From an uncultured Rhodospirillales bacterium (GTDB lineage Bacteria > Pseudomonadota > Alphaproteobacteria > Rhodospirillales > UBA2165): a DNA stretch of 64,000 bases. The notes beneath the pieces are model-generated. The model was not told where the DNA came from. It saw only the letters and a list, made by a program, of their open reading frames with translations, and searched no databases. The DNA lies in NCBI GenBank assembly GCA_913055735.1, contig CAJXKD010000002.1, positions 472,150 through 536,149 on the forward strand, given 5' to 3'. Shown one piece after another: positions 2,225-37,070 of the stretch; the first letter of the stretch is position 1; each line of letters begins with the position of its first letter. The translations under genes were made by a program, and so were the position numbers.

Positions 2225-3457
2225 ATGCCAGGAAGACGCGATCATAAGCGCATCCTAATTTATAGTCATGACAGCTTCGGCTTGGGGCACTTGCGCCGAT
2301 GCCGCACTATCGCGCACGCGTTGGTGGGGGATAGCTCCGGTGTATCCGTTCTGATCCTATCGGGGTCACCGATCATCGGAAGCTTCGACTTCCGGGCGCG
2401 CGTCGATTTCGTTCGCATTCCGGGGGTAATCAAGCTGCGCAACGGCGAATACACGTCGTTGAAGTTGCACCTCGATATCGAGCAAACGCTGAATCTCCGA
2501 AGTTCGATCATTCAGCACACCGCCGACGTTTTTGATCCGGACCTGTTTATCGTCGATAAGGAGCCCTTGGGTCTTCACGGGGAGGTCGGCCCGACATTGG
2601 AGCTTCTGAAGGAGCGTGGCACGCCGCTCGTCCTGGGCCTGCGGGACGTCATGGACGAGCCGGGGCTTTTGGCCCCTGAATGGCAGCGCAAGAATGTGAT
2701 GCCGGCCCTTACCCATTTATATGACGAGATTTGGGTCTATGGACTGCCGCAGATTTACGACCCGCTCTCAGGAATGGAGGTGCCGGATTCCGTTCGCCGT
2801 AAAATGGTCTTCACCGGCTATCTCCGCTACGAAATGCCCGATTCCTTGCAGGCTCAGAAACCGACCACACTAGCGGTCGAAGAACCGTATCTATTGGTCA
2901 CTGCGGGTGGCGGAGGCGACGGCGAAGGGCTGATTGATTGGGTGCTTAAAGCGTACGAGACCGATCCCACTATTCCTTATTCGGCGATGATCGTCTTTGG
3001 CCCGTTCATGCAACCCGATGACCGGGAAGCTTTCTTGAGCCGGGTCGCCAAGCTCGATCGGGTAAAAGCGATAACATTCGATGCCCGGTTTGAGGCGTTG
3101 GTCGAGCGCGCCGTCGGTGTTGTCGCGATGGGCGGTTACAACACGTTTTGTGAAATCCTGTCCTTCGACAAACCGGGGCTGATTGTTCCCCGTAAGAGGC
3201 CGAGGCTGGAACAATTCATTCGGGCATCGCGCGCGCAGGAAATCGGTTTGTTGTCCATGTTGGAGGACGACGGCGTTCGGGATCCGAAGCAGATGGCGAC
3301 CGCGCTTCGTCAGCTGCCGCAACAGAAGCGTCCCTCGGAGTTCGTCGTTCCCGGCTTGTTGGATGGCCTGCCCAATATCTGCCGCCTGGTCGACAAGTGG
3401 GTCGACCGGGAGCGTGAGCGGCCGGGTGATTTGACGGTTGTGCGGGGGTCCGCCTGA
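2225..3457 (+). CDS. GT-B glycosyltransferase, MurG-like / COG4671-type (paralog 1)
   Basis: N-terminal YSHDSFGLGHLRRC motif, TAGGGGDG, and C-terminal MGGYNTFCEIL. Paralogous to 6480-7667. Confidence 0.75.
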   Translation: MPGRRDHKRILIYSHDSFGLGHLRRCRTIAHALVGDSSGVSVLILSGSPIIGSFDFRARVDFVRIPGVIKLRNGEYTSLKLHLDIEQTLNLRSSIIQHTADVFDPDLFIVDKEPLGLHGEVGPTLELLKERGTPLVLGLRDVMDEPGLLAPEWQRKNVMPALTHLYDEIWVYGLPQIYDPLSGMEVPDSVRRKMVFTGYLRYEMPDSLQAQKPTTLAVEEPYLLVTAGGGGDGEGLIDWVLKAYETDPTIPYSAMIVFGPFMQPDDREAFLSRVAKLDRVKAITFDARFEALVERAVGVVAMGGYNTFCEILSFDKPGLIVPRKRPRLEQFIRASRAQEIGLLSMLEDDGVRDPKQMATALRQLPQQKRPSEFVVPGLLDGLPNICRLVDKWVDRERERPGDLTVVRGSA

Positions 3458-3509
3458 CAGGCATGGGGCGCTCCAAGCAACTCCCCATAAAATTCTTCAG
3501 GCAACAACC

Positions 3510-4757
3510 ATGACCACAGCTATTGTCGTCAAAGGCTATCCGCGGCTTTCCGAAACGTTTATCGCGCAGGAGATCGAGGCGCTCGAACGGTCGGGTCTTG
3601 ATATCGTGATCGTGTCGTTGCGCCATCCCACGGACAAGGATGTTCATCCCGTTCACCGTCGGATCAAGGCGCCGGTCTTTTATCTTCCGGAATATTTGTT
3701 GCGAGAGCCGTTGCGGGTTTGGCGGGCTTGGCAGGCCGTGCGTAAATGGCCGGCCTACAAAAACGCCAAATTGGTGTGGCTGAGTGATTTGAGGCGCGAT
3801 CTTACCTCCAACCGCATTCGCCGATTCGGACAGGCTTTGGTGTTGGCCCATGAAATGGCCGATACCGTCGAGCGGCTCTACGCCCATTTTCTGCACACGC
3901 CGTCTTCGGTGGCGCGATATGCTTCCATTCTCCGCGAATTGCCATGGTCGGCGGCGGCGCACGCCGTGGATATCTGGACGACCCCCGAATGGGAGTTGCG
4001 GGAAAAGCTTGAGGACGTGGCTTGGGTGACGACCTGCACCGCGGCCAACCGCGACCGTTTGCAGGCGCTGTCGCCGGATCCATCCAAAGTTTCGCTCAAC
4101 TACCACGGACTGGATGTTGCGCGGTTCGAAACGGACGGCATGATCCCGTCGGAGCGGAAGGGCGATAAGGCGACCGACCCTGTTGTCATTTTGTCGGTCG
4201 GCCGCTTGGTTCCCAAGAAAGGCTATGACGATCTTTTGGCGGCGTTGGCGAAGTTGCCGCGCACCCTTCATTGGCGGTTCATCCACGTCGGCGGCGGTCC
4301 TTTGAAAGATCGCCTGACACAGCAGGCGCGCGGCCTCGGGATCGACGGGAATATCGATTGGCTTGGCGCCCAATCTCAGGAAAAGGTCCTCGATCAGTAC
4401 CGGCGTGCGGACCTGTTCGTCTTGACTAGCCGGATCGCAAAAAATGGCGACCGGGACGGATTGCCCAATGTCTTGATGGAGGCGCAGAGCGTTGGATTGC
4501 CCTGTGTGTCGACCCGCGCGTCCGCGATCCCGGAGCTAATCGTCGATGGCGAAACCGGGTTCCTCGTCGAGCCGGGCGATATCGAGGGAATCGAGCGGCA
4601 CTTGGCGCAACTCATCGGTGATCCGGCGCTGCGCCATCAGTTTGGTAAGGCGGGACAACAGTACGTGCGTGCCCATTTCGATTTTAAGCACTGCGTCGGC
4701 GGAATCCGGAAGCTGTTTGGGTTGAAAGACGGCGCGGCGGATACACAGGTCGCATGA
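3510..4757 (+). CDS. Glycosyltransferase family 4 (WcaL/AmsK-like)
   Basis: ATG at 3510 gives MTTAIVVKGYPRLSETFI, a typical N-terminus for this group. GT1-type C-terminal domain (SRIAKNGDRDGLPNVLMEAQSVGLPCVST, ETGFLV). Confidence 0.8.
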   Translation: MTTAIVVKGYPRLSETFIAQEIEALERSGLDIVIVSLRHPTDKDVHPVHRRIKAPVFYLPEYLLREPLRVWRAWQAVRKWPAYKNAKLVWLSDLRRDLTSNRIRRFGQALVLAHEMADTVERLYAHFLHTPSSVARYASILRELPWSAAAHAVDIWTTPEWELREKLEDVAWVTTCTAANRDRLQALSPDPSKVSLNYHGLDVARFETDGMIPSERKGDKATDPVVILSVGRLVPKKGYDDLLAALAKLPRTLHWRFIHVGGGPLKDRLTQQARGLGIDGNIDWLGAQSQEKVLDQYRRADLFVLTSRIAKNGDRDGLPNVLMEAQSVGLPCVSTRASAIPELIVDGETGFLVEPGDIEGIERHLAQLIGDPALRHQFGKAGQQYVRAHFDFKHCVGGIRKLFGLKDGAADTQVA

Positions 4758-5884
4758 ATATTGCCTTCTATGCACCGATGAAACATCCCGGTGCCTCCGT
4801 TCCCTCCGGGGACGTGGCGATTGCACGCGGAATAATCGCCGCACTGGAGCAGGCCGGGCATCAGGTCGACGTCGTCTCTCGATTGCGGACGTGGCAGGCC
4901 GACCCCGATCCAGAGCGGCAGCTGCGGCTGGCGAAAATAAGCCGCCTCATGGCGCAACGCCTGATGCGGCGTTTTCGTGCCCGTCCCGCCGCGTCACAAC
5001 CCGACCTATGGTTCACCTATCATCTGTATTACAAGGCACCCGATTGGCTGGGGCCGGAAGTAAGCCGGGTGTTGGATATTCCTTACGTGGTTGCCGAAGC
5101 GTCGCATGCGCCGAAACGTTTGGGCGGGCCTTGGGACGTAGGCCATCGTGCCGCGGAAGCGGCGATCAGGGCCGCCGATCGGGTGTTCGGGTTGAACTCG
5201 CTCGATGCCGCTTGTATCCGACCGCTTCTCGACGACCCCGCCAAGCTTGTTCAACTCAGGCCATTCATGGATATTCCGCCGATGATTGAGGTCGATCAAC
5301 GGAACGCGCGACGCGACGTGATTGCCGCTCGATACCGGGTGGACGGCGACGCCGTTTGGCTGTTGACGGTGGCGATGATGCGCGATGATGCAAAATTGGA
5401 GTCCTATAGGGTGTTGGCCGACGCCTACAGGCGGCTGACGCGCCGCGATACCACGTTGTTCGTTGTCGGCGATGGCGCGGCGCGGGAAAGGGTGGAAAAG
5501 GCTTTTGCCGATCAAAAGGTTGTCTTTACCGGGCGTTTGGAGGGGGAGTTGCTCGCTTCCTTGCTGGATACAGCCGACATCTATGTTTGGCCTGCCGTGA
5601 ATGAGGCATATGGGATGGCGCTGCTCGAGGCGCAGGCGCATGGATTGCCGGTGGTCGCGGGCAGGGCCGGCGGGGTTGCGGACATTGTCCGAGACGGTAA
5701 GACGGGCCTGCTGACCCCTGAAGGTGACGCTGCGGCGATGGCGGCGGCAATCGCCGGGTTGTGTGACGACCCGACGCGGCGCAATCAAATGGGAAAAGCG
5801 GCGCGGCACACCGTTGTCGCGGAACATAGTCTTACCGCCGCGACCGCAATCCTCGATGGGGCCCTGCGGGAGATTGCCGCATGA
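4754..5884 (+). CDS. Glycosyltransferase group 1
   Basis: EAYGMALLEAQAHGLPVVAGRAGGVADIVRDGKTGLL (E-x7-E type motif). The start overlaps the upstream stop (4754/4757). Confidence 0.8.
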   Translation: MNIAFYAPMKHPGASVPSGDVAIARGIIAALEQAGHQVDVVSRLRTWQADPDPERQLRLAKISRLMAQRLMRRFRARPAASQPDLWFTYHLYYKAPDWLGPEVSRVLDIPYVVAEASHAPKRLGGPWDVGHRAAEAAIRAADRVFGLNSLDAACIRPLLDDPAKLVQLRPFMDIPPMIEVDQRNARRDVIAARYRVDGDAVWLLTVAMMRDDAKLESYRVLADAYRRLTRRDTTLFVVGDGAARERVEKAFADQKVVFTGRLEGELLASLLDTADIYVWPAVNEAYGMALLEAQAHGLPVVAGRAGGVADIVRDGKTGLLTPEGDAAAMAAAIAGLCDDPTRRNQMGKAARHTVVAEHSLTAATAILDGALREIAA

Positions 5885-6483
5885 CGATCCTCGCGATGAT
5901 CCGGCATGGCGACACGGACTGGAACCGGCAAGGACTGATCCAGGGCCACAGTGATATCCCGCTTGGCGAAGAGGGGGAGCGGGATGTCCGCAGTTGGCGT
6001 TTGCCGCCCGACCTCGAAGAATTCGATTGGATCGCAAGCCCTCTGAAACGGGCTTTGGAAACGGCACGTCTCTTGGCGAAACGGGAACCCCGCATAGAAG
6101 AGCGGCTGACGGAAATGAGTTGGGGCGAATGGGAGGGCCGAACCCTCGCAGCACTGCGCGAGGAACTGGGCGATCTCATGCGCGCCTGGGAAGCCCGAGG
6201 TCTCGATTTTCGGGGGCCCGAAGGCGAAAGCCCCCGCGATGTCCAAGACCGCGTCCGGCCATTATTGGCGGAGTTGGCGCAGGCGGGCAAACCGACGGTT
6301 GCCGTTTGCCATCGCGGCGTCATTCGATCGGTCTATGCGATGGCAACGGGATGGGACATGGTGGAAAAGGCGCCGGTGAAATTGCGCGATGCGGCGGTCC
6401 ATTATTTCATTCTGACGTCGGATGGAACGCCTGCCGTCGATCGGCTCAACGTCAAACTCGGTGCCGATCTGGAGCCGCGATGA
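5881..6483 (+). CDS. Histidine phosphatase family protein (phosphoglycerate mutase-like)
   Basis: RHG motif at the N-terminus (MIRHGDTDWN) and a second His motif (VCHRGVIRS). Overlapping start/stop with both neighbours. Confidence 0.8.
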   Translation: MTILAMIRHGDTDWNRQGLIQGHSDIPLGEEGERDVRSWRLPPDLEEFDWIASPLKRALETARLLAKREPRIEERLTEMSWGEWEGRTLAALREELGDLMRAWEARGLDFRGPEGESPRDVQDRVRPLLAELAQAGKPTVAVCHRGVIRSVYAMATGWDMVEKAPVKLRDAAVHYFILTSDGTPAVDRLNVKLGADLEPR

Positions 6484-7667
6484 CGCGCAAAAATGTCTTT
6501 TTTTATGTCCAGCACCTGTTGGGGATCGGTCACCTCAAACGGGCGGCGACACTTGCGCGCGCCATGTCCGAGGAAGGACTGGACGTCACCGTGGTATCGG
6601 GGGGCGAGGAAGTCGACGTGCTTGACCAACACGGCATGACCTTCGTGCAACTTCCGCCGATCCGCACGCGCGATCGCACTTTCAGCGGACTGGTCGACGC
6701 TAGTGGAGAAGATGTCGGCGAAGACCTCAAGCAACGCCGCGCGGCCGTATTGATCGATGCGTTTACATCGGTCCGACCCGACGTGCTGATCGTCGAACTG
6801 TATCCTTTCGGGCGCCGGCAACTCCGCTTCGAGTTGGATCCGTTGCTCGATGCCGCGGACGCCATGCACCCGCGTCCGGTGATCGTGTCGTCGGTGCGCG
6901 ATATACTGGTTGAAAAGAACCGTCCGGAGCGGGACCGGCAGATGGTCGACACGGCCAAGGCCCGTTTCGATGCCGTCATGGTGCACGGCGATCCGGCGTT
7001 CATCCCCCTCGATGCGACGTTCCCGTTGGCCAAGGAAATCGCGGATATGATCCATTACACCGGCTACGTGGTGGAGAAAACGCTTGCCGATGCCGAGGGC
7101 GGAATACAGGGGGCGGGTGAGGTGATCGTTTCCTCCGGCAGCGGCGCGGTGGGCGAACTGTTGCTGAGGACCGCGATGGCGGCGCGGCCACGCACGGGCC
7201 TGTCGCAGGTGACGTGGCGTCTGTTGGCCGGTCCGAGTTTGCCAGACGACGTGTTTATGGATCTAAAGGCTGCGGCGCCGGATGGGGTCATCGTTGAACG
7301 GGCGCGGCGCGATTTCGTGACGTTGTTGAAGAACTGCCGGTTATCGATCTCGCAGGGCGGCTATAACACGGTCATGGAAATTCTGGCAACGGGGGCAAAG
7401 GGAATTGCCGTGCCCTATGCCGGGGGGCATGAAACCGAACAGACACTGCGGACCCGGTTGCTCGCCGAAAGAGGCGCAATTCTGCAGATTCCCGAATCGG
7501 AACTGAATATCGACCGTCTTATCGACATGATCGAGCGCGCGGAAGGCCTTCCCAAACCGAAACCTTATCCATTGGACATGAACGGCGCCGAAAAAGCGGC
7601 CAAATTGGTCGCAACCTGGGCAGCACACGGCCTTGAAAGCGGCATTGCGGCTAATCAATTGGATTAA
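6480..7667 (+). CDS. GT-B glycosyltransferase, MurG-like / COG4671-type (paralog 2)
   Basis: ATG at 6480 gives MTRKNVFFYVQHLLGIGHLKRA, with SQGGYNTVMEIL near the C-terminus. The longer ORF from 5994 overlaps the phosphatase gene out of frame and was trimmed. Confidence 0.75.
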   Translation: MTRKNVFFYVQHLLGIGHLKRAATLARAMSEEGLDVTVVSGGEEVDVLDQHGMTFVQLPPIRTRDRTFSGLVDASGEDVGEDLKQRRAAVLIDAFTSVRPDVLIVELYPFGRRQLRFELDPLLDAADAMHPRPVIVSSVRDILVEKNRPERDRQMVDTAKARFDAVMVHGDPAFIPLDATFPLAKEIADMIHYTGYVVEKTLADAEGGIQGAGEVIVSSGSGAVGELLLRTAMAARPRTGLSQVTWRLLAGPSLPDDVFMDLKAAAPDGVIVERARRDFVTLLKNCRLSISQGGYNTVMEILATGAKGIAVPYAGGHETEQTLRTRLLAERGAILQIPESELNIDRLIDMIERAEGLPKPKPYPLDMNGAEKAAKLVATWAAHGLESGIAANQLD

Positions 7668-7721
7668 GAACGTAATTTCGCTAGGCTAATTGGCGGCAGA
7701 CCCGCCAAAAACAACAGGGTC

Positions 7722-10700
7722 GTGTCTTTTCGGGGTCGGGCGACAGTATACGGGAAAGGGACCGCGGTGGAGCGGGGCGTCTTCAAATATATCCTGCGCT
7801 ATAGCAGGCCGCAGCAAATCTTGCTGCTGACCCTTTCGGTTCTCTCGTTCCCCGTTTATTACGCGTCTCTGCAGCTCCCCAAGATGATCGTCGATGACGG
7901 TATCGGTGCGGAAGATTTCCCCCGCACGTTCCTCGGCACCGAGTTCGAGCATATTCCTTTTTTGCTGTTTCTCTGCGGCATCTTTCTGGCGCTGGTCTTC
8001 TTCAACGGCGCGTTCAAATACGTCATCAACGTCTTTAAGGGATCGAGCGGCGAGCGCCTGTTGCGCCGTCTCAGATACCAACTTATCTCCCGCGTTCTTC
8101 GCTTCCCGCTGCCGCAGTTCCGGAAAGTGTCGCAAGGCGAATTGGTGTCCATGATCACTGCCGAAACGGAGCCGCTCGGCGGTTTCTTCGGCGAAGGCTT
8201 GGCGACGCCTGTTTATCAAGGCGGAATGTTAGTCACCCTGATGACATTCATGTTCGTGCAGGATTGGAAGCTGGGTCTTGCGGCGGTCGCCCTGTACCCG
8301 TTTCAGGCTTGGCTCATTCCCAAGTTGCAGCGTCAGGTAAATGCGCTCGGCAAGGAGCGGGTGCGAACCGTTCGGCAGTTGTCGGAACGGATTGGCGAGG
8401 CGGTGTCCGGCGCGAGCGAGATTCATGCGAATGATACCGCGCAGTACGAATTGGCCGACTTTTCGTCCCGGTTGGGGCGCATCTATGCCATTCGCTTCGA
8501 GATTTATCTCAAGAAGTTCTTCATCAAGTTCCTGAACAACTTTCTTGCCCAGCTGACACCGTTCTTTTTCTACTCCATTGGCGGCATCCTAGTCATCAAC
8601 GGGCAGATCACGATCGGGGCGCTGATCGCAATCCTTTCGGCTTACAAGGATGTCTTGGCGCCGTGGAAAATTCTGCTCAACTACTATCAGCAGAAAGAGG
8701 ACGCTCGGATCAAATACGAGCAGATCATTGAACGCTTCGAACCTACCGGTCTGCTCGATGAAAAGATGCAGGAGGAAGAGCCGGACGATCTGCCCCGCTT
8801 CGAAGGGCGGCTCGTCGCATCGAACGTCGGCTGGTCCGAGGACGATGGCTTGAAAGTTCTCGACGGGGCGTCGCTCGCCATTGATCTTCCCAAGCACGTC
8901 GCGTTGACCGGCCCGGCCGGCGGCGGGAAGGGGGAGTTCTCGCAACTCCTGGCGCGGCTTTTGGTGCCAAGCAGCGGCCGTATAACGATCGGCGACTCCA
9001 ACCTTATTGAGTTGCCGGAATCGGTAACGGGACGGCGCATCGCCTATGTCGGGCAAAGCCCGTATATGTTCAATGCATCGATCCGCGATAACCTTCTGTA
9101 CGGTCTAAAGCATCGGGTGTTGCAGGAACCCGAATACGACGCCGACGCCCGCAAGGAGCGCGAGAAGGAGATTCTCGAATCCCAAAGATCTGGCAATAGC
9201 GTCTACGATCCTTCAGCGATCTGGGTGGATGTCGGCTCCGCAGGGACTGAAGATGACGAAGCCTTGGCGCACCGGATAAACGAGGTGCTTCGAACGGTGG
9301 GGCTTCGCCGGGACGTCTATCAGATGGGATTGCGCCGGACCATAGACCCGGTGGAGCGGCGGGCCTTGGCCAAGCGGGTGCTTGAGGCGCGCGCCAAGCT
9401 GAGGGAGCGTTTGCTCGACCCTGAGCTCGCCCAATTCGTCGAGACTTTCGATCCGGAAAAATATAATAGCAACGCGTCGGTTGCCGAAAATATCCTGTTC
9501 GGCACGCCGGTCGGCGACCAATTGGCGATCGAGAAGCTCGGGGAAAACAGCTATATGCTGCGTGTTCTCGACGAGGTTGGTCTTGCCCAGGCGTTTCTGG
9601 AAAAGGGCTTGCGGCTCGCGGAGATCATGGTCGATCTGTTCCGCGGCCTGTCACCGGATCACGAGTTCTTCGAGCGGTTCAGCTTCATCAGCTCTGACGA
9701 TTTGCCGGACTTTCAAGCTATTGTACAGCGCGCGGCCCAAAGCGGGCTGGATAGTCTTCCCGAAGACGAGCGGGCGAGACTTCGGGCGTTGCCGTTCCTA
9801 CTGATCCCCGCCCGCCATCACCTGGACATTATCGACGAGCCTTTCCAGCGCCAGTTGTTGGATGCGCGCCGCGCCTTTCATGCCAGCCTCCCCAAGGAAT
9901 TGGCGTCGGCTGTCGAATTCTTCGATGTCGAGAAGTACAACTCCGCGAGTTCCATCCAGGACAATATTCTGTTCGGCAAGCTTGCCCGGGAACGGGCCGG
10001 AAGCGCCGAGAAAGTCGGCGTCTTGCTTGCGGAGGCCGTGGATGAAGTCGGACTTCGCCAGGACATCCTCGAGCTGGGTCTCGACGTCAATGTCGGCATC
10101 GGCGGCAGTCGCTTGTCGGCGCTTCAAAGGCAAAAACTGGCCATCGCCCGAGGCCTGATGAAATGTCCCGATATTTTCATCCTGAACGAAGCGTTGTCGG
10201 GACTCGATCCGGACAACCAATCGTTGTTGCTCGAGAGCGTGTTGCGTGAGCAAGAGGGTCGGTCGGTCGTTTATGTGAACGGACCAACGGCGTCGACGGA
10301 CCATTTCGATCAGGTCATTTCCATCGCCGGTGGGCGAGTGGTCGATCATGGTGTGGGCGCGGCGCCGCCGCTCGAGGAAGCGCCCGCGGTTCCCGCGGAA
10401 GAGGTCGCCGGCGGCGGTTTTGGAGGCGAAATCGATGTTCTGGCGTCGCTTCCCTTGTTTCGTGGCATCGACCGCTCGCGTCTCAAACTGCTGGCCTTCG
10501 CCAGCCAGCGCCACATTTATGACCCGGGTCAGTACGTTATCCGGCAGGGCGAGGTCGGGGAAAACGCCTATATCGTCATTGACGGTGAGGCCGAAATCCT
10601 GCTCGACACGGGAGATGAGTTGAAAAAACTCGCGACATTGAAGCGCAACGACTTGTTCGGCGAACTGGCGCTCCTTTGCGAGGCACCGCGGACCGCCTCG

Positions 10701-11387
10701 ATCGTCGCCTCGACGCCCCTGACGGTTATGAGCATTTCCAAGGACGTTTTCATCAAGCTGGTCGCCGAAGATGTCGAGATGTCGGCGCGGGTGACCCGGT
10801 CTATTGCTGATAGCTTGGTGCGCACGACCGAGGATTTGAGCGAGGCGGCCCGGGTTCACGATTCCACAACGGACCTGCCCGACGCGCGGCTGTTCAACGA
10901 CCGGCTCCGGTATGCGGTTGCGCGCGGACGGCGTTTCCAGGAGGCCGCCGCGATCATTACGTTCAATCTGGAGCGATTCTTCGATGCGGACAGCGGCTAT
11001 TCGGAGGCCGACCGCGATGCTTTGTTAAAAGTCATCGCCGTACGCATCCGCGATGCCATCCGCGAAACAGACATGGCGGCGCGCCTTGATGACCTCGAGT
11101 TCGGGGTTCTCTTAAGTCCGGTCGACGGCAGCCTTTCGCATCAGGATATGGCGCAGCGTATCGCCGACAGTCTGTCTGCGCCTATCGATTTGCCCGAACG
11201 GTCGGTCCGGTTGACTGAAGCATGCGCGTTCAAGTTCCTCCAACTCGACGGCCGGGACGCGGAGGATCAGTTGCGGTCTTGTCGCAAAGGCGAAGGAAAG
11301 GTCATTCAAGTTTCCGGACGGGGGCAGGCGCCGGAACCGCGGCCAAAGGGACAAAATGGTGCCGGTGCCGATCGCAGGTCCACTTAG
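7722..11387 (+). CDS. ABC exporter-type TMD + degenerate/expanded NBD + cNMP-binding domain + degenerate GGDEF domain (1221-aa fusion)
   Basis: Six-TM type I exporter region. NBD-like motifs GPAGGGKGE, LSALQRQ and IFILNEALSGLD. cNMP phosphate-binding cassette FGELALLCEAPRTASIVA. GGDEF-like region with RETD-MAARL-DDLEF. The exact start is uncertain. Confidence 0.8.
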   Translation: MSFRGRATVYGKGTAVERGVFKYILRYSRPQQILLLTLSVLSFPVYYASLQLPKMIVDDGIGAEDFPRTFLGTEFEHIPFLLFLCGIFLALVFFNGAFKYVINVFKGSSGERLLRRLRYQLISRVLRFPLPQFRKVSQGELVSMITAETEPLGGFFGEGLATPVYQGGMLVTLMTFMFVQDWKLGLAAVALYPFQAWLIPKLQRQVNALGKERVRTVRQLSERIGEAVSGASEIHANDTAQYELADFSSRLGRIYAIRFEIYLKKFFIKFLNNFLAQLTPFFFYSIGGILVINGQITIGALIAILSAYKDVLAPWKILLNYYQQKEDARIKYEQIIERFEPTGLLDEKMQEEEPDDLPRFEGRLVASNVGWSEDDGLKVLDGASLAIDLPKHVALTGPAGGGKGEFSQLLARLLVPSSGRITIGDSNLIELPESVTGRRIAYVGQSPYMFNASIRDNLLYGLKHRVLQEPEYDADARKEREKEILESQRSGNSVYDPSAIWVDVGSAGTEDDEALAHRINEVLRTVGLRRDVYQMGLRRTIDPVERRALAKRVLEARAKLRERLLDPELAQFVETFDPEKYNSNASVAENILFGTPVGDQLAIEKLGENSYMLRVLDEVGLAQAFLEKGLRLAEIMVDLFRGLSPDHEFFERFSFISSDDLPDFQAIVQRAAQSGLDSLPEDERARLRALPFLLIPARHHLDIIDEPFQRQLLDARRAFHASLPKELASAVEFFDVEKYNSASSIQDNILFGKLARERAGSAEKVGVLLAEAVDEVGLRQDILELGLDVNVGIGGSRLSALQRQKLAIARGLMKCPDIFILNEALSGLDPDNQSLLLESVLREQEGRSVVYVNGPTASTDHFDQVISIAGGRVVDHGVGAAPPLEEAPAVPAEEVAGGGFGGEIDVLASLPLFRGIDRSRLKLLAFASQRHIYDPGQYVIRQGEVGENAYIVIDGEAEILLDTGDELKKLATLKRNDLFGELALLCEAPRTASIVASTPLTVMSISKDVFIKLVAEDVEMSARVTRSIADSLVRTTEDLSEAARVHDSTTDLPDARLFNDRLRYAVARGRRFQEAAAIITFNLERFFDADSGYSEADRDALLKVIAVRIRDAIRETDMAARLDDLEFGVLLSPVDGSLSHQDMAQRIADSLSAPIDLPERSVRLTEACAFKFLQLDGRDAEDQLRSCRKGEGKVIQVSGRGQAPEPRPKGQNGAGADRRST

Positions 11388-11415
11388 AGGCGAACAGTCA
11401 GAAGATTGAACGAAA

Positions 11416-11907
11416 TTGATGACGCAACCGCATAGATATCCATTTGAGCATCTCCGTGCCGACTATCTACGGGCAGGGGGCGGCGTCGTGCTGTGTTTGG
11501 CCCCCTTTGCCGTCGGGATGCCGTTGTCGGGCGGCGCGTGGGTTCTGTTGGGATGTGCGGCATTGTTTTTGCTCTACGGTCTGCGGACGGGAATGCGCCA
11601 AATGACCCGTGTTTGGGTCACTGATGACGGCATCGTTTCCGACGGCCCCATCAAAACGCGCATTGCCTGGGAAACGCTTGAAGATGTTCGGCTTTCTTAT
11701 TTCTCCACACGCCGCGGATCGGCGTCGGGCTGGCTGCAGCTTCGCCTCAAAGGAGCCGGTGCGACGATCCGGCTGGAATCGACGTTGACCGGTTTCGACG
11801 ATGTCGTGCGGTGCGCACTTCGCAAGGCTGGGGAACGAAGCCTTGCGTTGAACGCCGCGACGCAAAACAATATTTCGGCAATGGGACTTGTGACGGCGGA
11901 TGGCTGA
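11416..11907 (+). CDS. Hypothetical membrane protein (two N-terminal TM segments plus soluble C-terminal domain)
   Basis: 163-aa ORF with hydrophobic N-terminus. Its 3' end overlaps the ATG of the following ABC ATPase by 8 nt (11900-11907). No family recognised. Confidence 0.5.
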   Translation: MMTQPHRYPFEHLRADYLRAGGGVVLCLAPFAVGMPLSGGAWVLLGCAALFLLYGLRTGMRQMTRVWVTDDGIVSDGPIKTRIAWETLEDVRLSYFSTRRGSASGWLQLRLKGAGATIRLESTLTGFDDVVRCALRKAGERSLALNAATQNNISAMGLVTADG

Positions 11908-13831
11908 ACTTTCACAAAAGAGCAACTTGCTTCGGGTCGAGAATCTGAAAGTCGAATTCAGAACGCAATCCGGCGTCGTTTCCGCCGTTGACGGCGTGTC
12001 ATTCGCCGTGGAGCCGGGCGCGACGGTGGCCATTGTTGGTGAGTCCGGATCAGGCAAGTCGACGGTCGCGCAAGCCATCATGGGGATTTTACCGAAAGTC
12101 GCGTCGATCACCGGCGGGCAAATTCTGTTCAACGATCCGGACCACCGGGAAGGCCGGTCGCAATCGATGCAATTCCCGGATGGCGTCGATATCGCCAAGC
12201 TGAAACCGAGTGGCCGTGAGATGCAGTGCATTCGCGGCGGTCGTATCTCCATGATCTTTCAGGAGCCGATGACCTCCTTGTCGCCGCTACATACCATCGG
12301 CAACCAGATCAGCGAAGCCAACATGCTCCATTGCGGAACGAGCAAGAAGGAAGCCCTTGAGGCAACAACCGAGATGTTGCGCCTCGTCGGGTTCCCCGAT
12401 CCTGAGAAGGCCGTTCACACCTACCCCTTCGAGCTTTCCGGCGGATTGCGCCAGCGGGCGATGATCGCGATGGCGTTGGTTTGCGACCCGGCCTTACTGA
12501 TCGCCGATGAGCCGACGACGGCGCTGGACGTGACCATCCAGGCGCAGATCTTGAAGCTGATCAGCGATTTGCAATACCGATTGAAGATGGCGGTGCTAAT
12601 TATCACGCACGATCTCGGTGTCGTGGCCAACGTCGCCGACAATGTGGTGGTTTTGTACAACGGCCAGGTGATGGAATCTGGGCCCGTTCAGGAGATATTC
12701 GAAAAACCTGAGCATCCGTATTTGAAATCGCTCTTCCGCGCGGTGCCGCATTTCGACATGAAACCAGGAGAGCGGTTGGTCCCCATTCGGGAAATCAAGC
12801 ACACCACGGGGCATTTGTTGGCGCCGAAGGAAGATGCAGTTGCCGGAGGGCAGGACGACGCGCCGCTGCTCAGCGTCAAGAACCTGAGTAAGTCGTTCAC
12901 GGTCCGTCAGGAAGGGTTGCTCGGCGGCGGTACGACCCGCATAAGGGCCGTTCAGGATGTCAGCTTCGATATCGCGCGCGGTGAGACTCTCGGACTGGTG
13001 GGGGAAAGCGGGTGCGGCAAAACCACCGTGAGCAAGATGATCATGCGGGCGGTCAACCCCGATGGCGGTCAAATTCTGTTCAGGGACGGCGGCAACGTGA
13101 TTGATCTGACGTCCTTGAGCCAACGGGAGCTCATCCCTTACCGGCGTAAGTTTCAATATGTTTTCCAGGATCCTTTCGGCTCGCTCAATCCGCGCATGAC
13201 GGTCTACGACATCATCAGCGAGCCGCTGATGATCCACGACATCGGGGATGCCGATTATAAGCGGGAGATGGTGAAGGAGCTCATGAACCTCGTGGGACTG
13301 GACCCGAGATTCCTCAATCGGTACCCGCACAGTTTCTCCGGCGGTCAACGGCAACGGATCAGTATCGCGCGGTCCCTGGCACTCAAACCGGAACTATTGC
13401 TGTGCGATGAGCCTGTCTCCGCATTGGATGTTTCCGTGCAAGCGCAAATCCTCAATCTTATGAAAGACTTACAAGAAGAACTTGGCCTTACTTATCTATT
13501 CGTTTCGCACAATTTGGCGGTTGTCGATTATGTTGCGGACCGGATCGCCGTCATGTGCGCGGGGCAAATGGTCGAGTTGGCGCGGCGTGAGGAATTATTT
13601 AAGAATCCCGTTCATCCTTATACGAAAGCCCTCTTGGCGGCGGTTCCGTTTCCCGATCTCGATCGGCGTCTCGACTTGACCGCGCTCATGGAAGGCAAGG
13701 CGTCGGTTCCGTCATTATGGCCCGAACCGTTCGCCGTAAAACCGGGGGTGAACCCGGTATTGGTGGATATCGGGAACGAACATTTTGTCAGGGTTTCAGG
13801 CGAAGCGTCTGATTTGAGGGAAGCATCATGA
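11900..13831 (+). CDS. Peptide/opine-type ABC importer ATPase with duplicated NBD (DppD-DppF fusion, YejF-like)
   Basis: Two full NBDs: GESGSGKST...LSGGLRQR...[11 protein letters not shown] and GESGCGKTT...FSGGQRQR...[11 protein letters not shown]. Confidence 0.9.
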
Positions 13832-15735
13832 GACGGTTAGCGGGCATTTTTCTTGCTGCGTGGGTGATTGCGGTCGGCGTTGGCGTCGCGCCGTTGGGCG
13901 CGATGACGTTCAAGGAAACGCCAAGCCTGGAAGACGCGGTCAAATCCGGGAAATTACCGCCCATCGCCGAGCGCCTTCCGGACAATCCGTCGGTGGTGAA
14001 GTTCACCCGCCCGGACCGCGGTCTGGGGACGCCTGGCGGTACGTTGAATACGTTGATGGGCGCCGAGAAAGACGTGCGCCAGATGGTCGTGTACGGCTAT
14101 GCGCGGCTCATCGGCTATGACGAAGACTTCGAATTGGTGCCGGACATCGCCGAAAAGATCGATGTGGAGGAGGGGCGGATTTTCACGTTCCACCTGCGCA
14201 AGGGGCACCGGTGGTCCGACGGGCACCCGTTTACTGCGGAAGATTTCCGGTATTGGTGGGAGGACATGGCCCTCAATCCGGATATATCCAAACTCGGCCC
14301 CCCCGCGTTCATGATGGCTGACGGCGAGCGGCCGAAATTCGAGGTCATCGATGAAACGACCGTGCGGTATAGCTGGTCACGGCCGCAGCCGGACTTTCTG
14401 ACACGGCTTGCCGGTGCGCGCCCGGAGTTCATCTATCGCCCGGCGCATTATATGAAGCAATTTCACGCCAAGTATCAGGATCCGGCGAAACTCGAACAAC
14501 TGGTCAAGGAAGAACACCGGCGCAATTGGGTCGCCCTCCATTTCTTCCACGATCGCCCGTACAAGAACGACAATCCGCATTTCCCGACGTTGCAGCCATG
14601 GATGCTGACCAACGAACCACCTGCCAAGCGCTTCGTTTTCAAGCGTAACCCGTATTATTACCGCGTCGACGAAGCCGGGCGGCAATTGCCTTACATCGAT
14701 GAGGTGATCGTGACGATCGCGAGCGCCAAACTGATCCCGCCCAAGACAGGTACCGGGGAAACCGATCTCCAGGCCCGTGGGCTGACGCTCAAGAATTTCC
14801 CGTTCCTCAAAAAAGCGGAGAAACGGAACGGCTACAGAATTTATCTTTGGCCGACGGCCAAAGGTTCCGAGATGGTTCTCTATCCCAATCTGAATCACAA
14901 CGATCCCGAATGGCGAAAACTGTTCCGCGACATTCGCTTCCGGCGCGCACTGTCGTTGGCAACCGACCGCGGGCAGATCAACAAGCTGATCTATTTCGGT
15001 TTGGCGTCCCCCTCCGCAAACGCGATCCTGCCGGAAAGCCCCTTGTACAAAGCGAAGTATGGGGAGCACTGGGCGGAGTACGATTTAAAGAAGGCCAACG
15101 CACTTTTGGACGAAATGGGCCTGACCAAGCGCAATGACAGCGGCATTCGCGTTTTGCCCGACGGGCGTCCGTTGGAAATCACGGTGGAAACCTCTGGCGA
15201 GAACCTGGAGCAAACGGATGTTCTCCAACTGGTGGCGGAAACCTGGAAAAAGGCCGGCGTAAAGATGTTTATCAAGCCGTCGCAGCGCGAGGTCCTGCGT
15301 AACCGGGTTTTCTCAGGCGAAACGCAAATGGCCGTGTGGTCGGGGCTCGAGAACGGCGTGCCGACGGCTGAATCGAGCCCCGCGGAACTGGCGCCCTTGA
15401 GTCAGCAGCATCTTCAATGGCCGAAATGGGGACAGTACCTGGAAACCAATGGCAAGGCCGGCGAGCCGATCGATATGCCCAAGGCTAAGCACCTCATGGA
15501 CCTCTACGATAATTGGACCATGGCAACCTCGACGGACGAGAAACGGAAAATCTGGCACGAGATGCTCGATATCTACACCGAGCAGGTCTACACGATTGGA
15601 TTGATTTCCCGCGTGCCGCAGCCGGTCGTCGTGAACTCCCGTCTTCGGAACGTTCCCGATAAGGCGATCTACAACTGGGATCCGGGTGCCCATTTCGGCA
15701 TCTACCATCCCGATACATTTTGGTTTGAGCAATAG
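13828..15735 (+). CDS. ABC transporter substrate-binding protein, family 5 (peptide/nickel/opine type)
   Basis: Signal peptide ([25 protein letters not shown]), 635 aa, family-5 SBP-like sequence. Start overlaps the upstream stop. Confidence 0.85.
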   Translation: MRRLAGIFLAAWVIAVGVGVAPLGAMTFKETPSLEDAVKSGKLPPIAERLPDNPSVVKFTRPDRGLGTPGGTLNTLMGAEKDVRQMVVYGYARLIGYDEDFELVPDIAEKIDVEEGRIFTFHLRKGHRWSDGHPFTAEDFRYWWEDMALNPDISKLGPPAFMMADGERPKFEVIDETTVRYSWSRPQPDFLTRLAGARPEFIYRPAHYMKQFHAKYQDPAKLEQLVKEEHRRNWVALHFFHDRPYKNDNPHFPTLQPWMLTNEPPAKRFVFKRNPYYYRVDEAGRQLPYIDEVIVTIASAKLIPPKTGTGETDLQARGLTLKNFPFLKKAEKRNGYRIYLWPTAKGSEMVLYPNLNHNDPEWRKLFRDIRFRRALSLATDRGQINKLIYFGLASPSANAILPESPLYKAKYGEHWAEYDLKKANALLDEMGLTKRNDSGIRVLPDGRPLEITVETSGENLEQTDVLQLVAETWKKAGVKMFIKPSQREVLRNRVFSGETQMAVWSGLENGVPTAESSPAELAPLSQQHLQWPKWGQYLETNGKAGEPIDMPKAKHLMDLYDNWTMATSTDEKRKIWHEMLDIYTEQVYTIGLISRVPQPVVVNSRLRNVPDKAIYNWDPGAHFGIYHPDTFWFEQ

Positions 15736-15771
15736 ACGGCTCCGGAGCGGGCGACGGAGAGCTGACCGTTC

Positions 15772-16767
15772 ATGTTGAATTATCTCGCACGCCGCATATT
15801 GGTGATGATCGTAACCTTGGCGATCATCAGCCTGATGGTGTTCGTGATCATTCAATTGCCGGAAGGTGATTTCCTCACCAGCTATATCACCGAGTTGCAA
15901 AGCCAGGGCGAGGCGGTCGACAAGCAGAAGATCGAATATCTACGGGCGCAATATGGCCTCGATCAACCCTTGTGGCAGCAATACCTCACCTGGGTCGGCG
16001 GATTGGTGCAAGGCGACCTCGGATATTCCTTCGAGTACGACCTGCCGGTGACGGTCGTTCTCGGTGACCGATTGCTCCTGACCATCGTCGTCAATTTCTT
16101 TTCTGTTCTGTTCATCTACATCATTGCGTTCCCCATCGGTGTCTATTCGGCGGTGCGCCAATACAGTTGGGGCGACTACGGCCTGACGCTGGTCGGATTC
16201 TTGGGGCTGGCGACGCCCAATTTTTTGCTGGCGCTGATCCTCATGTATCTCGCCAACCGCTATTTCGGCACCTCCATCGGCACGTTGATGGCACCCGAAT
16301 ACCTCGATCAACCCATGTCCTTCGGCAAGATGATTTCCATCCTCGAACATCTGGCGGTGCCGGTGATCATTATCGGCACGGCGGGCACGGCGGGGATGAT
16401 CCGCCGGCTGCGCGCCAATCTTCTCGACGAATTGTTCAAGCAGTATGTGGTGACAGCCCGCGCCAAAGGTCTGTCCGAGGGTAAGTTGCTGGTCAAATAC
16501 CCGCTGCGTATGGCGCTCAACCCGTTTATCGCCGACATCGGCAATTTGCTGCCGCAAGTGGTCTCGGGCTCGGTCATCGTGTCCATCGTCATGGGCCTGG
16601 AAACCGTCGGTCCGCCGCTGGTCAAGGCGTTGCAGAGCCAGGATTTCTTCCTCTCCGGGGCGGTGTTGATGTTTGTCGCGCTGCTCACCGTCATCGGCAT
16701 GTTCATTTCTGATCTGGCACTGGCGGTTCTCGATCCCCGTATCCGGTTGCAGGGGGGCGCGCGGTAA
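15772..16767 (+). CDS. ABC transporter permease (DppB/YejB-like)
   Basis: N-terminal MLNYLARRILVMIVTL motif typical of DppB-type permeases, and an EAA loop (ARAKGLSEGKLLVKYPLRMALNP). Confidence 0.9.
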   Translation: MLNYLARRILVMIVTLAIISLMVFVIIQLPEGDFLTSYITELQSQGEAVDKQKIEYLRAQYGLDQPLWQQYLTWVGGLVQGDLGYSFEYDLPVTVVLGDRLLLTIVVNFFSVLFIYIIAFPIGVYSAVRQYSWGDYGLTLVGFLGLATPNFLLALILMYLANRYFGTSIGTLMAPEYLDQPMSFGKMISILEHLAVPVIIIGTAGTAGMIRRLRANLLDELFKQYVVTARAKGLSEGKLLVKYPLRMALNPFIADIGNLLPQVVSGSVIVSIVMGLETVGPPLVKALQSQDFFLSGAVLMFVALLTVIGMFISDLALAVLDPRIRLQGGAR

Positions 16768-32510: not shown

Positions 32511-32518
32511 CGTTTCGC

Positions 32519-33852: not shown

Positions 33853-33858
33853 TGGTGG

Positions 33859-34641: not shown

Positions 34642-34696
34642 GTTTCTTGGCTATCACGTTCGCCGGGGTGCGGCAAGCAACCTCGGGACTCGCTAT

Positions 34697-35814: not shown

Positions 35815-35956
35815 GAAATGAGCCTAGCGGGCTTTTGCCTTTTCGTACAGAGGCCCGCCATAGGTACAAACCCGATAGTATGTTGGAATTCAATGGAAAC
35901 ATCGGTGCGGGCCGATATGATGGCGTCAACACGACGAAACCAATAAGGAGGAAGAT

Positions 35957-37056: not shown

Positions 37057-37070
37057 GTCAAAACGGCGGG

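What the first reader, a model, noticed from the sequence alone, without database searches (positions are those of the whole stretch)
8907..10200. Every catalytic ATPase motif of the NBD is substituted
Walker A reads GPAGGGKGE, so Gly replaces the Ser/Thr after Lys (about 8907-8936). The signature reads LSALQ instead of LSGGQ (about 10112-10132). Walker B reads IFILNEA, so Asn replaces Asp (about 10172-10200). The position I align with the H-loop reads VYVNGP, with no His. A half-transporter homodimer would then have two degenerate sites, and no second ABC exporter gene is adjacent. The protein may bind but not hydrolyse ATP. It could act as a regulated conduit or scaffold, or it needs an unlinked partner.
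Basis: partly seen in the sequence, partly recalled or inferred. Interest (0 to 1): 0.6.

Follow-up and report, generated by a model that had tools for sequence, protein, structure and literature searches.

The report
ATPase-dead ABC exporter with messenger sensors
This gene encodes a membrane protein built like an ATP-driven ABC exporter, but its ATP-using motifs are replaced across a large, conserved and undescribed family, and sensor domains for cyclic nucleotides are attached, so second messengers rather than ATP hydrolysis probably control it.

Summary
"Every catalytic motif" overstates it. The Walker A Lys, Q-loop Gln, catalytic Glu and D-loop Asp are kept.

The substitutions are not decay. 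Among 120 homologues, Walker B Asn occurs in 118, no signature is LSGGQ, and no H-loop His is present. The transmembrane domain is the best conserved part.

- A conserved insert of about 270 residues sits inside the nucleotide-binding domain. It arose by triplication of the Q-loop/helical-subdomain unit and has no solved structural relative.
- An intact cNMP-binding domain follows.
- A degenerate GGDEF domain keeps its RxxD c-di-GMP site.

The insert marks at least 658 protein clusters. All examined members have degenerate motifs. Nearly all have a cNMP sensor, fused or encoded next door.

No partner exporter is adjacent in about 50 loci. In Rhodospirillales the gene sits in a conserved 11-gene block with four glycosyltransferases, a phosphatase and a Yej/Gsi-like importer.

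Best reading: a homodimeric exporter-fold protein that does not hydrolyse ATP and is gated by second messengers. Its substrate is unknown.

The parts
7767..11387 (+). Gene for the pseudo-ATPase ABC exporter-like protein. The likely start is GTG 7767 (1206 aa); the maximal ORF starts at 7722 (1221 aa).
   Evidence: ORF. Identical to P0001. All homologues start MExGIF. Four Pfam domains.
7779..8741 (+). Type-IV (MsbA/ABCB-like) transmembrane domain, about aa 20-340. It is the most conserved part of the protein.
   Evidence: PF00664 E 3.8e-23. Closest solved sequences are BmrD/YheH, MsbA, ABCB10 and BmrA. Foldseek matches to TmrAB, TM287/288 and BmrA have TM-scores of about 0.6. 42% of columns are at least 90% conserved.
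8838..8840 (+). A-loop position. Glu373 stands where canonical exporters have the adenine-stacking Tyr, inside an acidic run (SEDDG; family consensus EEDEG).
   Evidence: Alignment. Column counts are Glu 87 and Asp 11 of 114.
8910..8936 (+). Deviant Walker A, GPAGGGKGE. The Lys is kept, Ser/Thr is replaced by Gly, and an acidic residue follows.
9045..9062 (+). Q-loop YVGQSP, with Gln445 retained. This begins repeat unit R1.
9105..9911 (+). Conserved helical insert of about 270 aa (about aa 462-730) inside the NBD, between the Q-loop segment and the pre-signature segment. It contains repeat unit R2 (aa 573-631, nt 9438-9614) and invariant residues including W501, R557, H647, H699 and R716.
   Evidence: Pfam splits ABC_tran into two stretches. 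Self-BLAST of aa 573-631 against 731-788 gives 47% identity, E 2e-11. hhalign: R2-R3 96.7%, R1-R3 86%. AF2 pLDDT 92.6. No PDB fold match, best E 0.55. The insert alone finds 658 cluster representatives at E<=1e-10.
9912..10085 (+). Repeat unit R3 (aa 731-788). This is the copy that leads into the signature helix.
10113..10127 (+). Degenerate signature LSALQ. The family pattern is R-L-S-x-x-Q-R-Q-K; no member has the canonical LSGGQ.
10173..10208 (+). Walker B IFILNE, with Asn822 in place of Asp and Glu823 kept, followed by the D-loop SGLD.
   Evidence: Asn is present in 118 of 120 homologues.
10269..10286 (+). H-loop region VYVNGP. Gly854 aligns with the catalytic His.
   Evidence: No His at this column in 120 homologues.
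10518..10772 (+). cNMP-binding domain (aa 933-1017). Its phosphate-binding cassette GELALLCEAPRTA (nt 10659-10697) is intact.
   Evidence: PF00027 E 6.7e-20. G980, E981, A983 and R990 are invariant, and T991 is present in 103 of 114.
10854..11270 (+). Degenerate GGDEF domain (aa 1045-1183). The A-site reads DDLEF (nt 11088-11102). The RxxD I-site RETD (nt 11061-11072) sits five residues upstream and is retained.
   Evidence: PF00990 E 4.5e-14. R1114 is present in 95 of 96 and D1117 in 94 of 96, while the A-site is variable.
2225..7667 (+). Upstream conserved genes: a GT-B/GT28-like protein (2225-3457), GT4 (3510-4757 as called in L001; the maximal ORF starts at 3438), GT4 (4754-5884), a histidine phosphatase (5881-6483) and a GT28_C glycosyltransferase (about 6480-7667). 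The last four overlap by 4 bases.
   Evidence: The order is conserved in about 22 Rhodospirillales loci.
11416..17921 (+). Downstream conserved genes: a small membrane protein (11416/11488-11907), a double-NBD YejF/GsiA-like ATPase (11900-13831), an SBP_bac_5 binding protein (13828-15735) and two Opp-type permeases (15772-16767 and 16767-17921).

Best explanation
The gene encodes a half-size, type-IV (MsbA/ABCB-like) ABC exporter-fold protein. Its nucleotide-binding domain has been converted by selection into a non-catalytic pseudo-NBD.

The pseudo-NBD keeps the RecA-like and helical scaffold, the D-loop and the Q-loop. These are the elements that form the NBD-NBD and NBD-TMD interfaces. It has lost the Mg2+ and gamma-phosphate chemistry: Walker A Ser/Thr, Walker B Asp, the signature Gly-Gly, the H-loop His and the A-loop Tyr. 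It has gained a triplicated helical subdomain.

The protein most likely works as a homodimer. Its inward/outward or open/closed equilibrium would be set by second messengers instead of an ATP hydrolysis cycle. A cyclic mononucleotide would bind the intact cNMP domain. In this subfamily, c-di-GMP would bind the RxxD I-site of the degenerate GGDEF domain. Ligand-induced association of the C-terminal domains would stand in for ATP-induced NBD closure.

The protein would then act as a regulated facilitator, flippase or channel, or as a regulated membrane scaffold. Its cargo would be the unknown glycoconjugate made by the four co-transcribed glycosyltransferases and the phosphatase, and it would cooperate with the adjacent Yej/Gsi-type importer.

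Shown here: the motif substitutions, their family-wide conservation, the insert and its origin, the intact sensor motifs, the synteny, and the absence of an adjacent partner.

Inferred: loss of ATPase activity, the homodimeric state, gating by messengers, and the link to the glycosyltransferase product.
For: - Motif placement comes from alignment to solved ABCB exporters and from Pfam.
- The pattern is under purifying selection, not decay. Walker B Asn is in 118 of 120 homologues, the signature is always LSxxQ, no H-loop His occurs, and the A-loop position is acidic in 98 of 114. The TMD is the most conserved region, and the insert carries invariant residues.
- Degeneracy extends to 65 near-full-length representatives of the wider insert-bearing family. 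None has an LSGGQ signature.
- The AF2 model is confident (pLDDT 84.7; NBD and insert blocks mostly 84-96, majority >=90) and matches type-IV exporters.
- The sensor motifs are intact. The cNMP phosphate-binding cassette has an invariant Arg and Thr/Ser. RxxD is 95-94 of 96 while the GGDEF A-site is degenerate.
- The link to a cNMP sensor survives gene fission. A stand-alone cNMP_binding gene lies directly downstream of TMD+pseudo-NBD-only members P0133, P0129 and P0209. A second cNMP gene follows the Granulosicoccus members.
- No second type-IV exporter is in the window or adjacent in about 50 loci.
- Linkage to the glycosyltransferase cluster and the Yej-like importer holds in about 22 loci, and persists after rearrangement in L022, L024, L049 and L050.
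- Precedents exist. Degenerate GGDEF I-site receptors PelD and BcsE control polysaccharide secretion (PMC7439463). SbmA shows that an ABC-type TMD can run alternating access without ATP (PMC8442886, PMC13316013).
Against: - No biochemical data exist for any member.
- The Walker A Lys (84%), the catalytic Glu (72%) and the Q-loop Gln (71%) are retained. This is hard to explain if nucleotide plays no role. A conserved Glu or Asp two residues after the Walker A Lys could in principle rebuild a Mg2+ site.
- The GGDEF domain is absent from many members, so c-di-GMP control cannot be general.
- No adenylate, guanylate or diguanylate cyclase gene was found in the window.
- The oligomeric state was not modelled.
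- The link to the glycosyltransferase product rests on synteny only. It is absent in the Granulosicoccus loci and in the P0118 locus (L005).
- My literature searches cover open-access text only.
Confidence: 0.55

Rival explanations
1. The protein forms an obligate heterodimer with an unlinked canonical half-transporter, which supplies one working ATP site, as in TM287/288, BmrCD or TmrAB.
For: Natural ABC exporters with degenerate motifs are usually heterodimers (papers listed). The rest of the genome could not be searched. The D-loop and Q-loop needed for NBD pairing are retained.
Against: In known heterodimers the two genes are adjacent. Here none is adjacent in the window or in about 50 loci spanning 39-64% identity. 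The degenerate Walker A, Walker B and H-loop and the degenerate signature all lie on the same chain, so pairing with a canonical chain would impair both composite sites rather than one. The bulky insert in the helical subdomain would have to fit against a normal NBD.
Confidence: 0.12
2. The NBD still binds and slowly hydrolyses ATP, or another NTP, through a rewired site. The conserved Glu after the Walker A Lys would replace the Walker B Asp and Walker A Ser as Mg2+ ligand. The protein would be a slow, messenger-modulated primary exporter.
For: The Walker A Lys, the Walker B Glu, the Q-loop Gln and a near-invariant Asn-Glu pair are conserved. An acidic residue at position +2 after the Lys occurs in 95 of 120 homologues. 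Strict conservation of Asn822 suggests a specific role rather than neutral loss.
Against: Five separate elements are lost together: the A-loop Tyr, the Walker A Ser/Thr, the Walker B Asp, the signature GG and the H-loop His. From my own knowledge of the ABC literature, not checked here, single mutations of the Walker B Asp or the H-loop His nearly abolish ATPase activity in P-glycoprotein, MalK and HlyB. In more distant members the Walker A Lys itself is often Arg, Ala or Gln.
Confidence: 0.18
3. The pseudo-NBD with its insert is a binding or enzymatic module for something other than ATP, such as a sugar nucleotide, a glycosyltransferase partner or the transported glycoconjugate. The protein would mainly be a scaffold that organises the glycosyltransferases at the membrane.
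For: The insert is strongly conserved, with invariant His, Arg and Trp residues. It is confidently folded and has no solved relative. Linkage to four glycosyltransferases is tight.
Against: The TMD, not the insert, is the most conserved part, which argues for a membrane-translocation role. Family members in Granulosicoccus lack the glycosyltransferase cluster. No catalytic family matches the insert.
Confidence: 0.12
4. The finding is an artefact: a misaligned motif assignment, or a decaying pseudogene.
For: The Pfam ABC_tran score is low (46 bits) and split into two stretches.
Against: The alignments have high posterior probability at the motif columns. The reading frame is intact over 1206 codons and is identical on several independent contigs. 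There are 120 or more homologues with the same pattern. The AF2 model is confident.
Confidence: 0.01

Closest known systems
Homodimeric type-IV ABC exporters (MsbA, BmrA, Sav1866, ABCB10)
   Same: Half-transporter layout with a six-helix PF00664 TMD followed by an NBD. These are the best sequence and fold matches. The Q-loop, D-loop and the helix after the signature are retained.
   Different: The Walker A Ser/Thr, Walker B Asp, signature GG, H-loop His and A-loop Tyr are all replaced. An insert of about 270 aa from a triplicated helical-subdomain unit is present. cNMP and GGDEF domains are fused at the C-terminus. Scores against every curated NCBIfam exporter model are far below cut-off, for example MsbA at 187 against 602 bits.
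Heterodimeric ABC exporters with one degenerate site (TM287/288, BmrCD, TmrAB, Rv1273c/72c; also CFTR and SUR)
   Same: They carry naturally degenerate catalytic motifs in an exporter fold. In CFTR and SUR the fold is used for gating or regulation rather than pumping.
   Different: Those proteins keep one consensus site and hydrolyse ATP there. Their degeneracy is split between two chains or halves, which are adjacent genes or fused. Here all elements are degenerate on a single chain with no adjacent partner, so both sites of a homodimer are affected.
SbmA/BacA (SLiPT) peptide transporters
   Same: An ABC type-IV TMD fold that performs alternating access without ATP hydrolysis (PMC8442886, PMC13316013). 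Like BacA and YejABEF in rhizobia, this gene is associated with a Yej-like importer (the BacA/YejABEF link is from my own knowledge).
   Different: SbmA has no NBD at all. This protein keeps a large modified NBD plus sensor domains. Its TMD is closer in sequence to BmrD and MsbA, and SbmA does not appear among the hits.
PelD and BcsE: degenerate GGDEF domains that sense c-di-GMP through the I-site and activate polysaccharide secretion
   Same: A GGDEF fold with a lost A-site and a conserved RxxD motif. The domain is attached to, or associated with, an envelope export machine encoded beside glycosyltransferases.
   Different: Here the domain is fused to an ABC exporter-fold protein and preceded by a cNMP-binding domain. 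It is dispensable in many family members, which are about 880 or about 1030 aa long.

Membership tests
Type-IV ABC exporter half-transporter (MsbA/ABCB-like) | Six-helix ABC_membrane (PF00664) TMD with long intracellular loops | tested here: met
   PF00664 at 83 bits against a cut-off of 28. AF2 model matches TmrAB, TM287/288 and BmrA with TM-scores of about 0.6. phmmer of the TMD alone hits BmrD and MsbA.
Type-IV ABC exporter half-transporter (MsbA/ABCB-like) | C-terminal NBD of the ABC_tran fold | tested here: met
   PF00005 at 46 bits against a cut-off of 25, in two stretches separated by about 300 aa. Both halves align to ABCB1 and ABCB4 NBDs.
Type-IV ABC exporter half-transporter (MsbA/ABCB-like) | Consensus catalytic motifs: A-loop aromatic, GxxGxGK[ST], hhhhDE, LSGGQ, H-loop His | tested here: not met
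   Residues are E373, GPAGGGKGE, IFILNE, LSALQ and G854. The same pattern holds across the family.
Type-IV ABC exporter half-transporter (MsbA/ABCB-like) | ATP hydrolysis coupled to transport | not testable with these tools
   Needs ATPase and transport assays.
Curated exporter equivalogs (MsbA, HepA, CydDC, NdvA/ChvA, T1SS ABC) | Score above the NCBIfam curated cut-off | tested here: not met
   The best hit, MsbA TIGR02203, scores 187 bits against 602. All others are also far below cut-off.
Heterodimeric ABC exporter with one degenerate site | A partner half-transporter gene is adjacent, and degeneracy is complementary between the two chains | tested here: not met
   No other PF00664-type ORF is in the window or next to homologues in about 50 loci. 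All degenerate motifs lie on one chain.
cNMP-binding domain (CAP/PKA type) | Beta-barrel domain whose phosphate-binding cassette has the Gly-Glu pair and the Arg-Thr/Ser pair | tested here: met
   PF00027 at 71 bits. The cassette GELALLCEAPRTAS has G, E and R invariant, and T/S in 112 of 114 sequences. Ligand identity was not tested.
Active diguanylate cyclase (GGDEF) | GG[DE]EF active-site motif | tested here: not met
   The motif reads DDLEF and is variable in the family.
Degenerate-GGDEF c-di-GMP receptor (PelD/BcsE type) | GGDEF fold with the A-site lost and RxxD five residues upstream conserved | tested here: met
   PF00990 at 53 bits. R1114 is present in 95 of 96 and D1117 in 94 of 96, with the spacing RETD-MAARL-DDLEF.
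Degenerate-GGDEF c-di-GMP receptor (PelD/BcsE type) | Measured c-di-GMP binding | not testable with these tools
   Needs DRaCALA, ITC or a co-structure.
SbmA/BacA (SLiPT) | ABC-type TMD without any NBD, driven by the proton gradient | tested here: not met
   An NBD-derived domain is present. SbmA is not among the TMD hits. Energy coupling was not testable.

The most novel reading that the evidence does not exclude
This is the founding example of a widespread, undescribed class of ABC-exporter-fold membrane proteins, comprising at least 658 protein clusters at 50% identity. In this class the ATP-hydrolysis engine has been retired and replaced by second-messenger control. Binding of a cyclic mononucleotide, and in one subfamily c-di-GMP, to C-terminal or co-encoded sensor domains would drive the closure and opening that ATP normally drives. 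A triplicated helical subdomain would transmit this to the membrane domain. The protein would thus be a ligand-gated transporter or channel for a glycoconjugate or peptide-like solute.
Probability: 0.3. Interest if true: 0.85.

Novelty: new variant of a known kind. Interest (0 to 1): 0.66.

Why it matters
ABC exporters are defined by ATP-driven NBD dimerisation. Natural exceptions are few: CFTR, SUR, and SbmA, which lacks an NBD altogether. Each has taught something about how the fold couples to energy.

This family is large and under selection. It keeps the NBD scaffold but discards five catalytic elements on a single chain. It inserts a new conserved domain made from duplicated NBD parts, and it is consistently tied to cyclic-nucleotide sensors. 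That gives a natural test of whether the exporter fold can be driven or gated by ligands other than ATP.

It would also add a new kind of cAMP/cGMP and c-di-GMP effector in marine Alphaproteobacteria and Gammaproteobacteria. Finally, it points to an uncharacterised 11-gene glycoconjugate and importer module conserved in Rhodospirillales.

Current annotation calls these proteins 'ABC transporter ATP-binding protein' or 'multidrug transport system fused ATPase/permease'. The 'ATPase' label is unlikely to be right, and 'multidrug' has no support.

Tried and rejected
- Pseudogene or alignment artefact: rejected.
- Adjacent partner exporter: none in the window or in related loci. The only nearby type-IV exporter, in L005, belongs to an unrelated type-I secretion cluster on the other strand.
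- RNA elements or riboswitches near the gene: none in the window at Rfam gathering thresholds.
- Promoter and terminator scan: counts no higher than in shuffled sequence, and no terminator-like site falls in the short gaps between cluster genes.
- A cyclase or diguanylate cyclase gene in the window that could supply the ligand: none found among the ORFs scanned.
- Naming the glycosyltransferase product: only sub-threshold hits to EpsE, BshA, MshA and sucrose-phosphate synthase for the GT4 genes, alpha-ribazole phosphatase for the histidine phosphatase, and MJ1255, MurG or PseG for the GT28-like genes. None reaches its curated cut-off, so the product stays unknown. I considered a link to low-molecular-weight thiols (BshA/MshA-like GT4, a phosphatase, a GsiA-like importer and CydDC-like exporter hits) but set it aside as unsupported.
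- Literature: six full-text searches found no paper on this architecture or on a doubly degenerate bacterial exporter family.
- Relation to SbmA/BacA: not supported by sequence.
Full report
**What is at the locus.** The finding lies in a single + strand ORF, 7722..11387 (1221 aa). The database copy, P0001, starts 15 codons later at GTG 7767, and all homologues begin MExGIF there. I use the 1221-aa numbering throughout. Pfam finds four domains: ABC_membrane (81-306), ABC_tran in two separated stretches, cNMP_binding (933-1017) and GGDEF (1045-1183). NCBIfam matches many exporter models (MsbA, HepA, TAP, CydD/C, type-I secretion ABC). All score far below their curated cut-offs; MsbA scores 187 bits against 602.

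**Checking the observation.** phmmer alignments to solved ABCB4 and ABCB1 chains place the motifs with high posterior probability.
- Walker A: GSSGCGKST aligns to GPAGGGKGE (nt 8910-8936). Lys403 is kept, the Mg-ligand Ser/Thr is Gly404, and Glu405 follows.
- Q-loop: VSQEP aligns to VGQSP, so Gln445 is kept.
- Signature: LSGGQ aligns to LSALQ (nt 10113-10127).
- Walker B: ILLLDEA aligns to IFILNEA (nt 10173-10193). Asp is replaced by Asn822, and the catalytic Glu823 is kept.
- D-loop: SALD aligns to SGLD, so it is kept.
- H-loop: IAHRLS aligns to VNGPTA, so His is replaced by Gly854.

Two corrections are needed. First, four classical positions (Walker A Lys, Q-loop Gln, catalytic Glu, D-loop Asp) are retained, so "every motif" is an overstatement. 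The adenine-stacking A-loop Tyr aligns with Glu373, inside an acidic run.

**The pattern is selected, not decay.** A protein search returned 120 listed homologues at 39-100% identity, mostly from uncultured marine Rhodospirillales. Most share the four-domain architecture; the rest lack the GGDEF domain. Counts out of 120:

| Position | Count |
|---|---|
| Walker B Asn | 118 |
| Residue after that Asn | Glu 86, Gln 14 |
| Walker A Lys | 101 |
| Residue after that Lys is Ser/Thr | 55 |
| Next residue is Glu/Asp | 95 |
| Q-loop Gln | 85 |
| D-loop Asp | 96 |
| Signature with LSGGQ | 0 (pattern R-L-S-x-x-Q-R-Q-K) |
| His at the H-loop column | 0 |

The A-loop column is Glu or Asp in 98 of 114 sequences. 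The TMD is the most conserved part of the protein, with 42% of columns at least 90% conserved. The frame is intact, and the identical protein occurs on several independent contigs.

Walker A and the signature are about 400 residues apart instead of about 100. The extra 270-300 residues (about aa 462-730) are conserved and carry invariant Trp, Arg and His residues. They were built by duplication of NBD sequence.
- Self-BLAST of aa 573-631 against 731-788 gives 47% identity, E 2e-11.
- Profile-profile comparison gives R2-R3 96.7% probability (E 3e-10), R1-R3 86% (E 5e-6) and R1-R2 40%.

Each unit runs from the Q-loop strand through the "SI.DNILFG" helix to a "VGL...GL" segment. Only R1 keeps the Q-loop Gln, and only R3 leads into the signature helix.

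AlphaFold2 models the whole protein with pLDDT 84.7 and pTM 0.71. NBD and insert blocks are mostly 84-96, the majority at or above 90. The insert alone reaches pLDDT 92.6. The full model matches type-IV exporters; TmrAB, TM287/288 and BmrA give TM-scores of about 0.6. The insert has no PDB match at E<=0.001.

**The wider family.** Searching the insert alone against 1.84 billion cluster representatives found 960 proteins at E<=1e-3, 658 at E<=1e-10 and 262 at E<=1e-30. Lengths cluster in three classes: about 880 aa (TMD and pseudo-NBD only), about 1030 aa (with cNMP) and about 1180 aa (with cNMP and GGDEF). In 65 representatives of 820 aa or longer, no signature is LSGGQ. Walker B is NE, DD, NQ, ND or occasionally DE. 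The Walker A Lys is often replaced. An H-loop His is rare. Degeneracy therefore goes with the insert across the whole family. Named genomes include Rhodospirillales MAGs, Granulosicoccus (one cultured isolate, L028), an Ectothiorhodospiraceae MAG and a Muproteobacteria MAG.

**The sensor domains.** The cNMP phosphate-binding cassette, GELALLCEAPRTAS, has invariant Gly, Glu, Ala and Arg, and Thr/Ser in 112 of 114 sequences. The GGDEF A-site reads DDLEF and varies within the family. The RxxD motif five residues upstream is nearly invariant: R1114 in 95 of 96 and D1117 in 94 of 96. Further conserved arginines occur at 1071, 1108 and 1146. This is the signature of a c-di-GMP I-site receptor such as PelD or BcsE (PMC7439463).

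The association with a cNMP sensor survives gene fission. Three of four distant members of about 880 aa (P0133, P0129, P0209) are followed immediately by a 150-179-aa stand-alone cNMP_binding gene. The fourth, P0156, lies on a 5-kb contig. The Granulosicoccus members have a fused cNMP domain and also a second stand-alone one.

**Genomic context.** In about 22 Rhodospirillales loci the gene sits in the same 11-gene block on one strand, often with overlapping genes. The order is:
- a GT28-like protein;
- GT4;
- GT4;
- a histidine phosphatase;
- GT28_C;
- this gene;
- a small membrane protein;
- a YejF/GsiA-like double ATPase;
- an SBP_bac_5 binding protein;
- two Opp-type permeases.

The association persists after rearrangement in L022 and L024. 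It also appears in distant members: L049 has GT4, GT28_C and a YejF-like gene placed divergently, and in L050 the gene directly follows an OppC-type permease. It is absent in Granulosicoccus and in the P0118 locus L005. None of the neighbouring enzymes reaches a curated family cut-off, so the product is unknown.

No second type-IV exporter lies in the window or adjacent in any related locus. No Rfam element and no cyclase gene was found in the window.

**Interpretation.** The shown facts point to a pseudo-NBD. Selection keeps the interface elements (Q-loop, D-loop, the helix after the signature) and a near-invariant Asn-Glu pair. Selection has removed the residues that hold Mg2+, contact the gamma-phosphate across the dimer, polarise the attacking water and stack the adenine.

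From my own knowledge of the ABC literature, not checked here, single substitutions of the Walker B Asp or the H-loop His nearly abolish hydrolysis in P-glycoprotein, MalK and HlyB. Losing five elements together on one chain makes a canonical ATPase cycle very unlikely in a homodimer. It would also impair both composite sites in a heterodimer.

The most economical mechanism is that second messengers set the conformational equilibrium of the highly conserved TMD. These would be a cyclic mononucleotide throughout the family and c-di-GMP in the GGDEF-bearing subfamily. Ligand-induced association of the C-terminal domains would take over the role of ATP-induced NBD closure. SbmA shows that this TMD fold can carry out alternating access without ATP (PMC8442886, PMC13316013).

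Which substrate moves, in which direction, and whether the protein is a facilitator, flippase, channel or scaffold are all inferences. Synteny suggests the glycoconjugate made by the adjacent glycosyltransferases and a functional tie to the Yej/Gsi-like importer.

**Rivals.**
- An unlinked canonical partner cannot be excluded without the whole genome, but it lacks any support from synteny and does not rescue either site.
- Residual, rewired nucleotide chemistry remains possible. The retained Lys, Glu and Gln and the conserved acidic residue after the Walker A Lys are otherwise unexplained.
- A non-nucleotide ligand or a scaffolding role for the insert is also open.
- An artefact or a pseudogene is excluded.

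**Novelty.** Six full-text searches found no description of this architecture or of a doubly degenerate bacterial exporter family. Public annotations are generic: "ATP-binding cassette domain-containing protein", "cyclic nucleotide-binding domain-containing protein", "multidrug transport system fused ATPase/permease".

I rate it a new variant of a known kind. It is an ABC exporter-fold family with a conserved non-catalytic NBD, a new NBD-derived insert domain and obligatory second-messenger sensors. It is interesting to ABC-transporter and second-messenger specialists and directly testable. Function remains unproven.

Noticed in passing
window 9105-9911 (with 9045-9104 and 9912-10085): The NBD contains three tandem copies of the segment from the Q-loop strand to the pre-signature helices. 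This creates a conserved insert of about 270 aa that is confidently modelled and has no PDB fold match.
   Followed up: yes
window 2225-17921: An 11-gene block on one strand is conserved in about 22 Rhodospirillales loci: four glycosyltransferases, a histidine phosphatase, this gene, a small membrane protein and a Yej/Gsi-like ABC importer. Many genes overlap by 4-8 bases. The product is unknown.
   Followed up: partly
window 11416-11907 (annotated start about 11488): A small predicted membrane protein (139-163 aa) has no Pfam or NCBIfam match. It is conserved directly downstream of the gene in Rhodospirillales, and its end overlaps the start of the YejF-like ATPase. In L024 it stays with the glycosyltransferase and importer genes when the pseudo-ABC gene is moved.
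   Followed up: partly
L046 10689-11144; L049 8666-9205; L050 4444-4896; L028 13181-13672: Stand-alone cNMP_binding proteins of 150-179 aa are encoded immediately downstream of distant family members. This includes members that already carry a fused cNMP domain.
   Followed up: yes
L042 9950-13128: In one long-read Alphaproteobacteria MAG the homologue appears as three consecutive ORFs: TMD (346 aa), pseudo-NBD (596 aa) and cNMP (164 aa). This is either a real gene fission or frameshift errors.
   Followed up: no
window 7722 vs 7767: The maximal ORF starts at GTG 7722. The database protein and all homologues support a start at GTG 7767, 15 codons downstream.
   Followed up: yes
window 32450-41341: Several ORFs here have no Pfam match (32450-33406, 38623-39699, 40481-41341), and some in this stretch have lower third-position GC (0.51-0.67 against about 0.75 elsewhere). 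An ABC ATPase on the minus strand at 34700-35488 was masked by a longer plus-strand ORF in a naive gene call.
   Followed up: no
window 55668-58614 and L046 1-1737: A trio of NTP-transferase, sulfotransferase and SAM-methyltransferase genes lies about 45 kb from the gene in this window. A similar trio lies about 6 kb upstream of the distant family member P0133. This may be coincidence or a further functional link.
   Followed up: no
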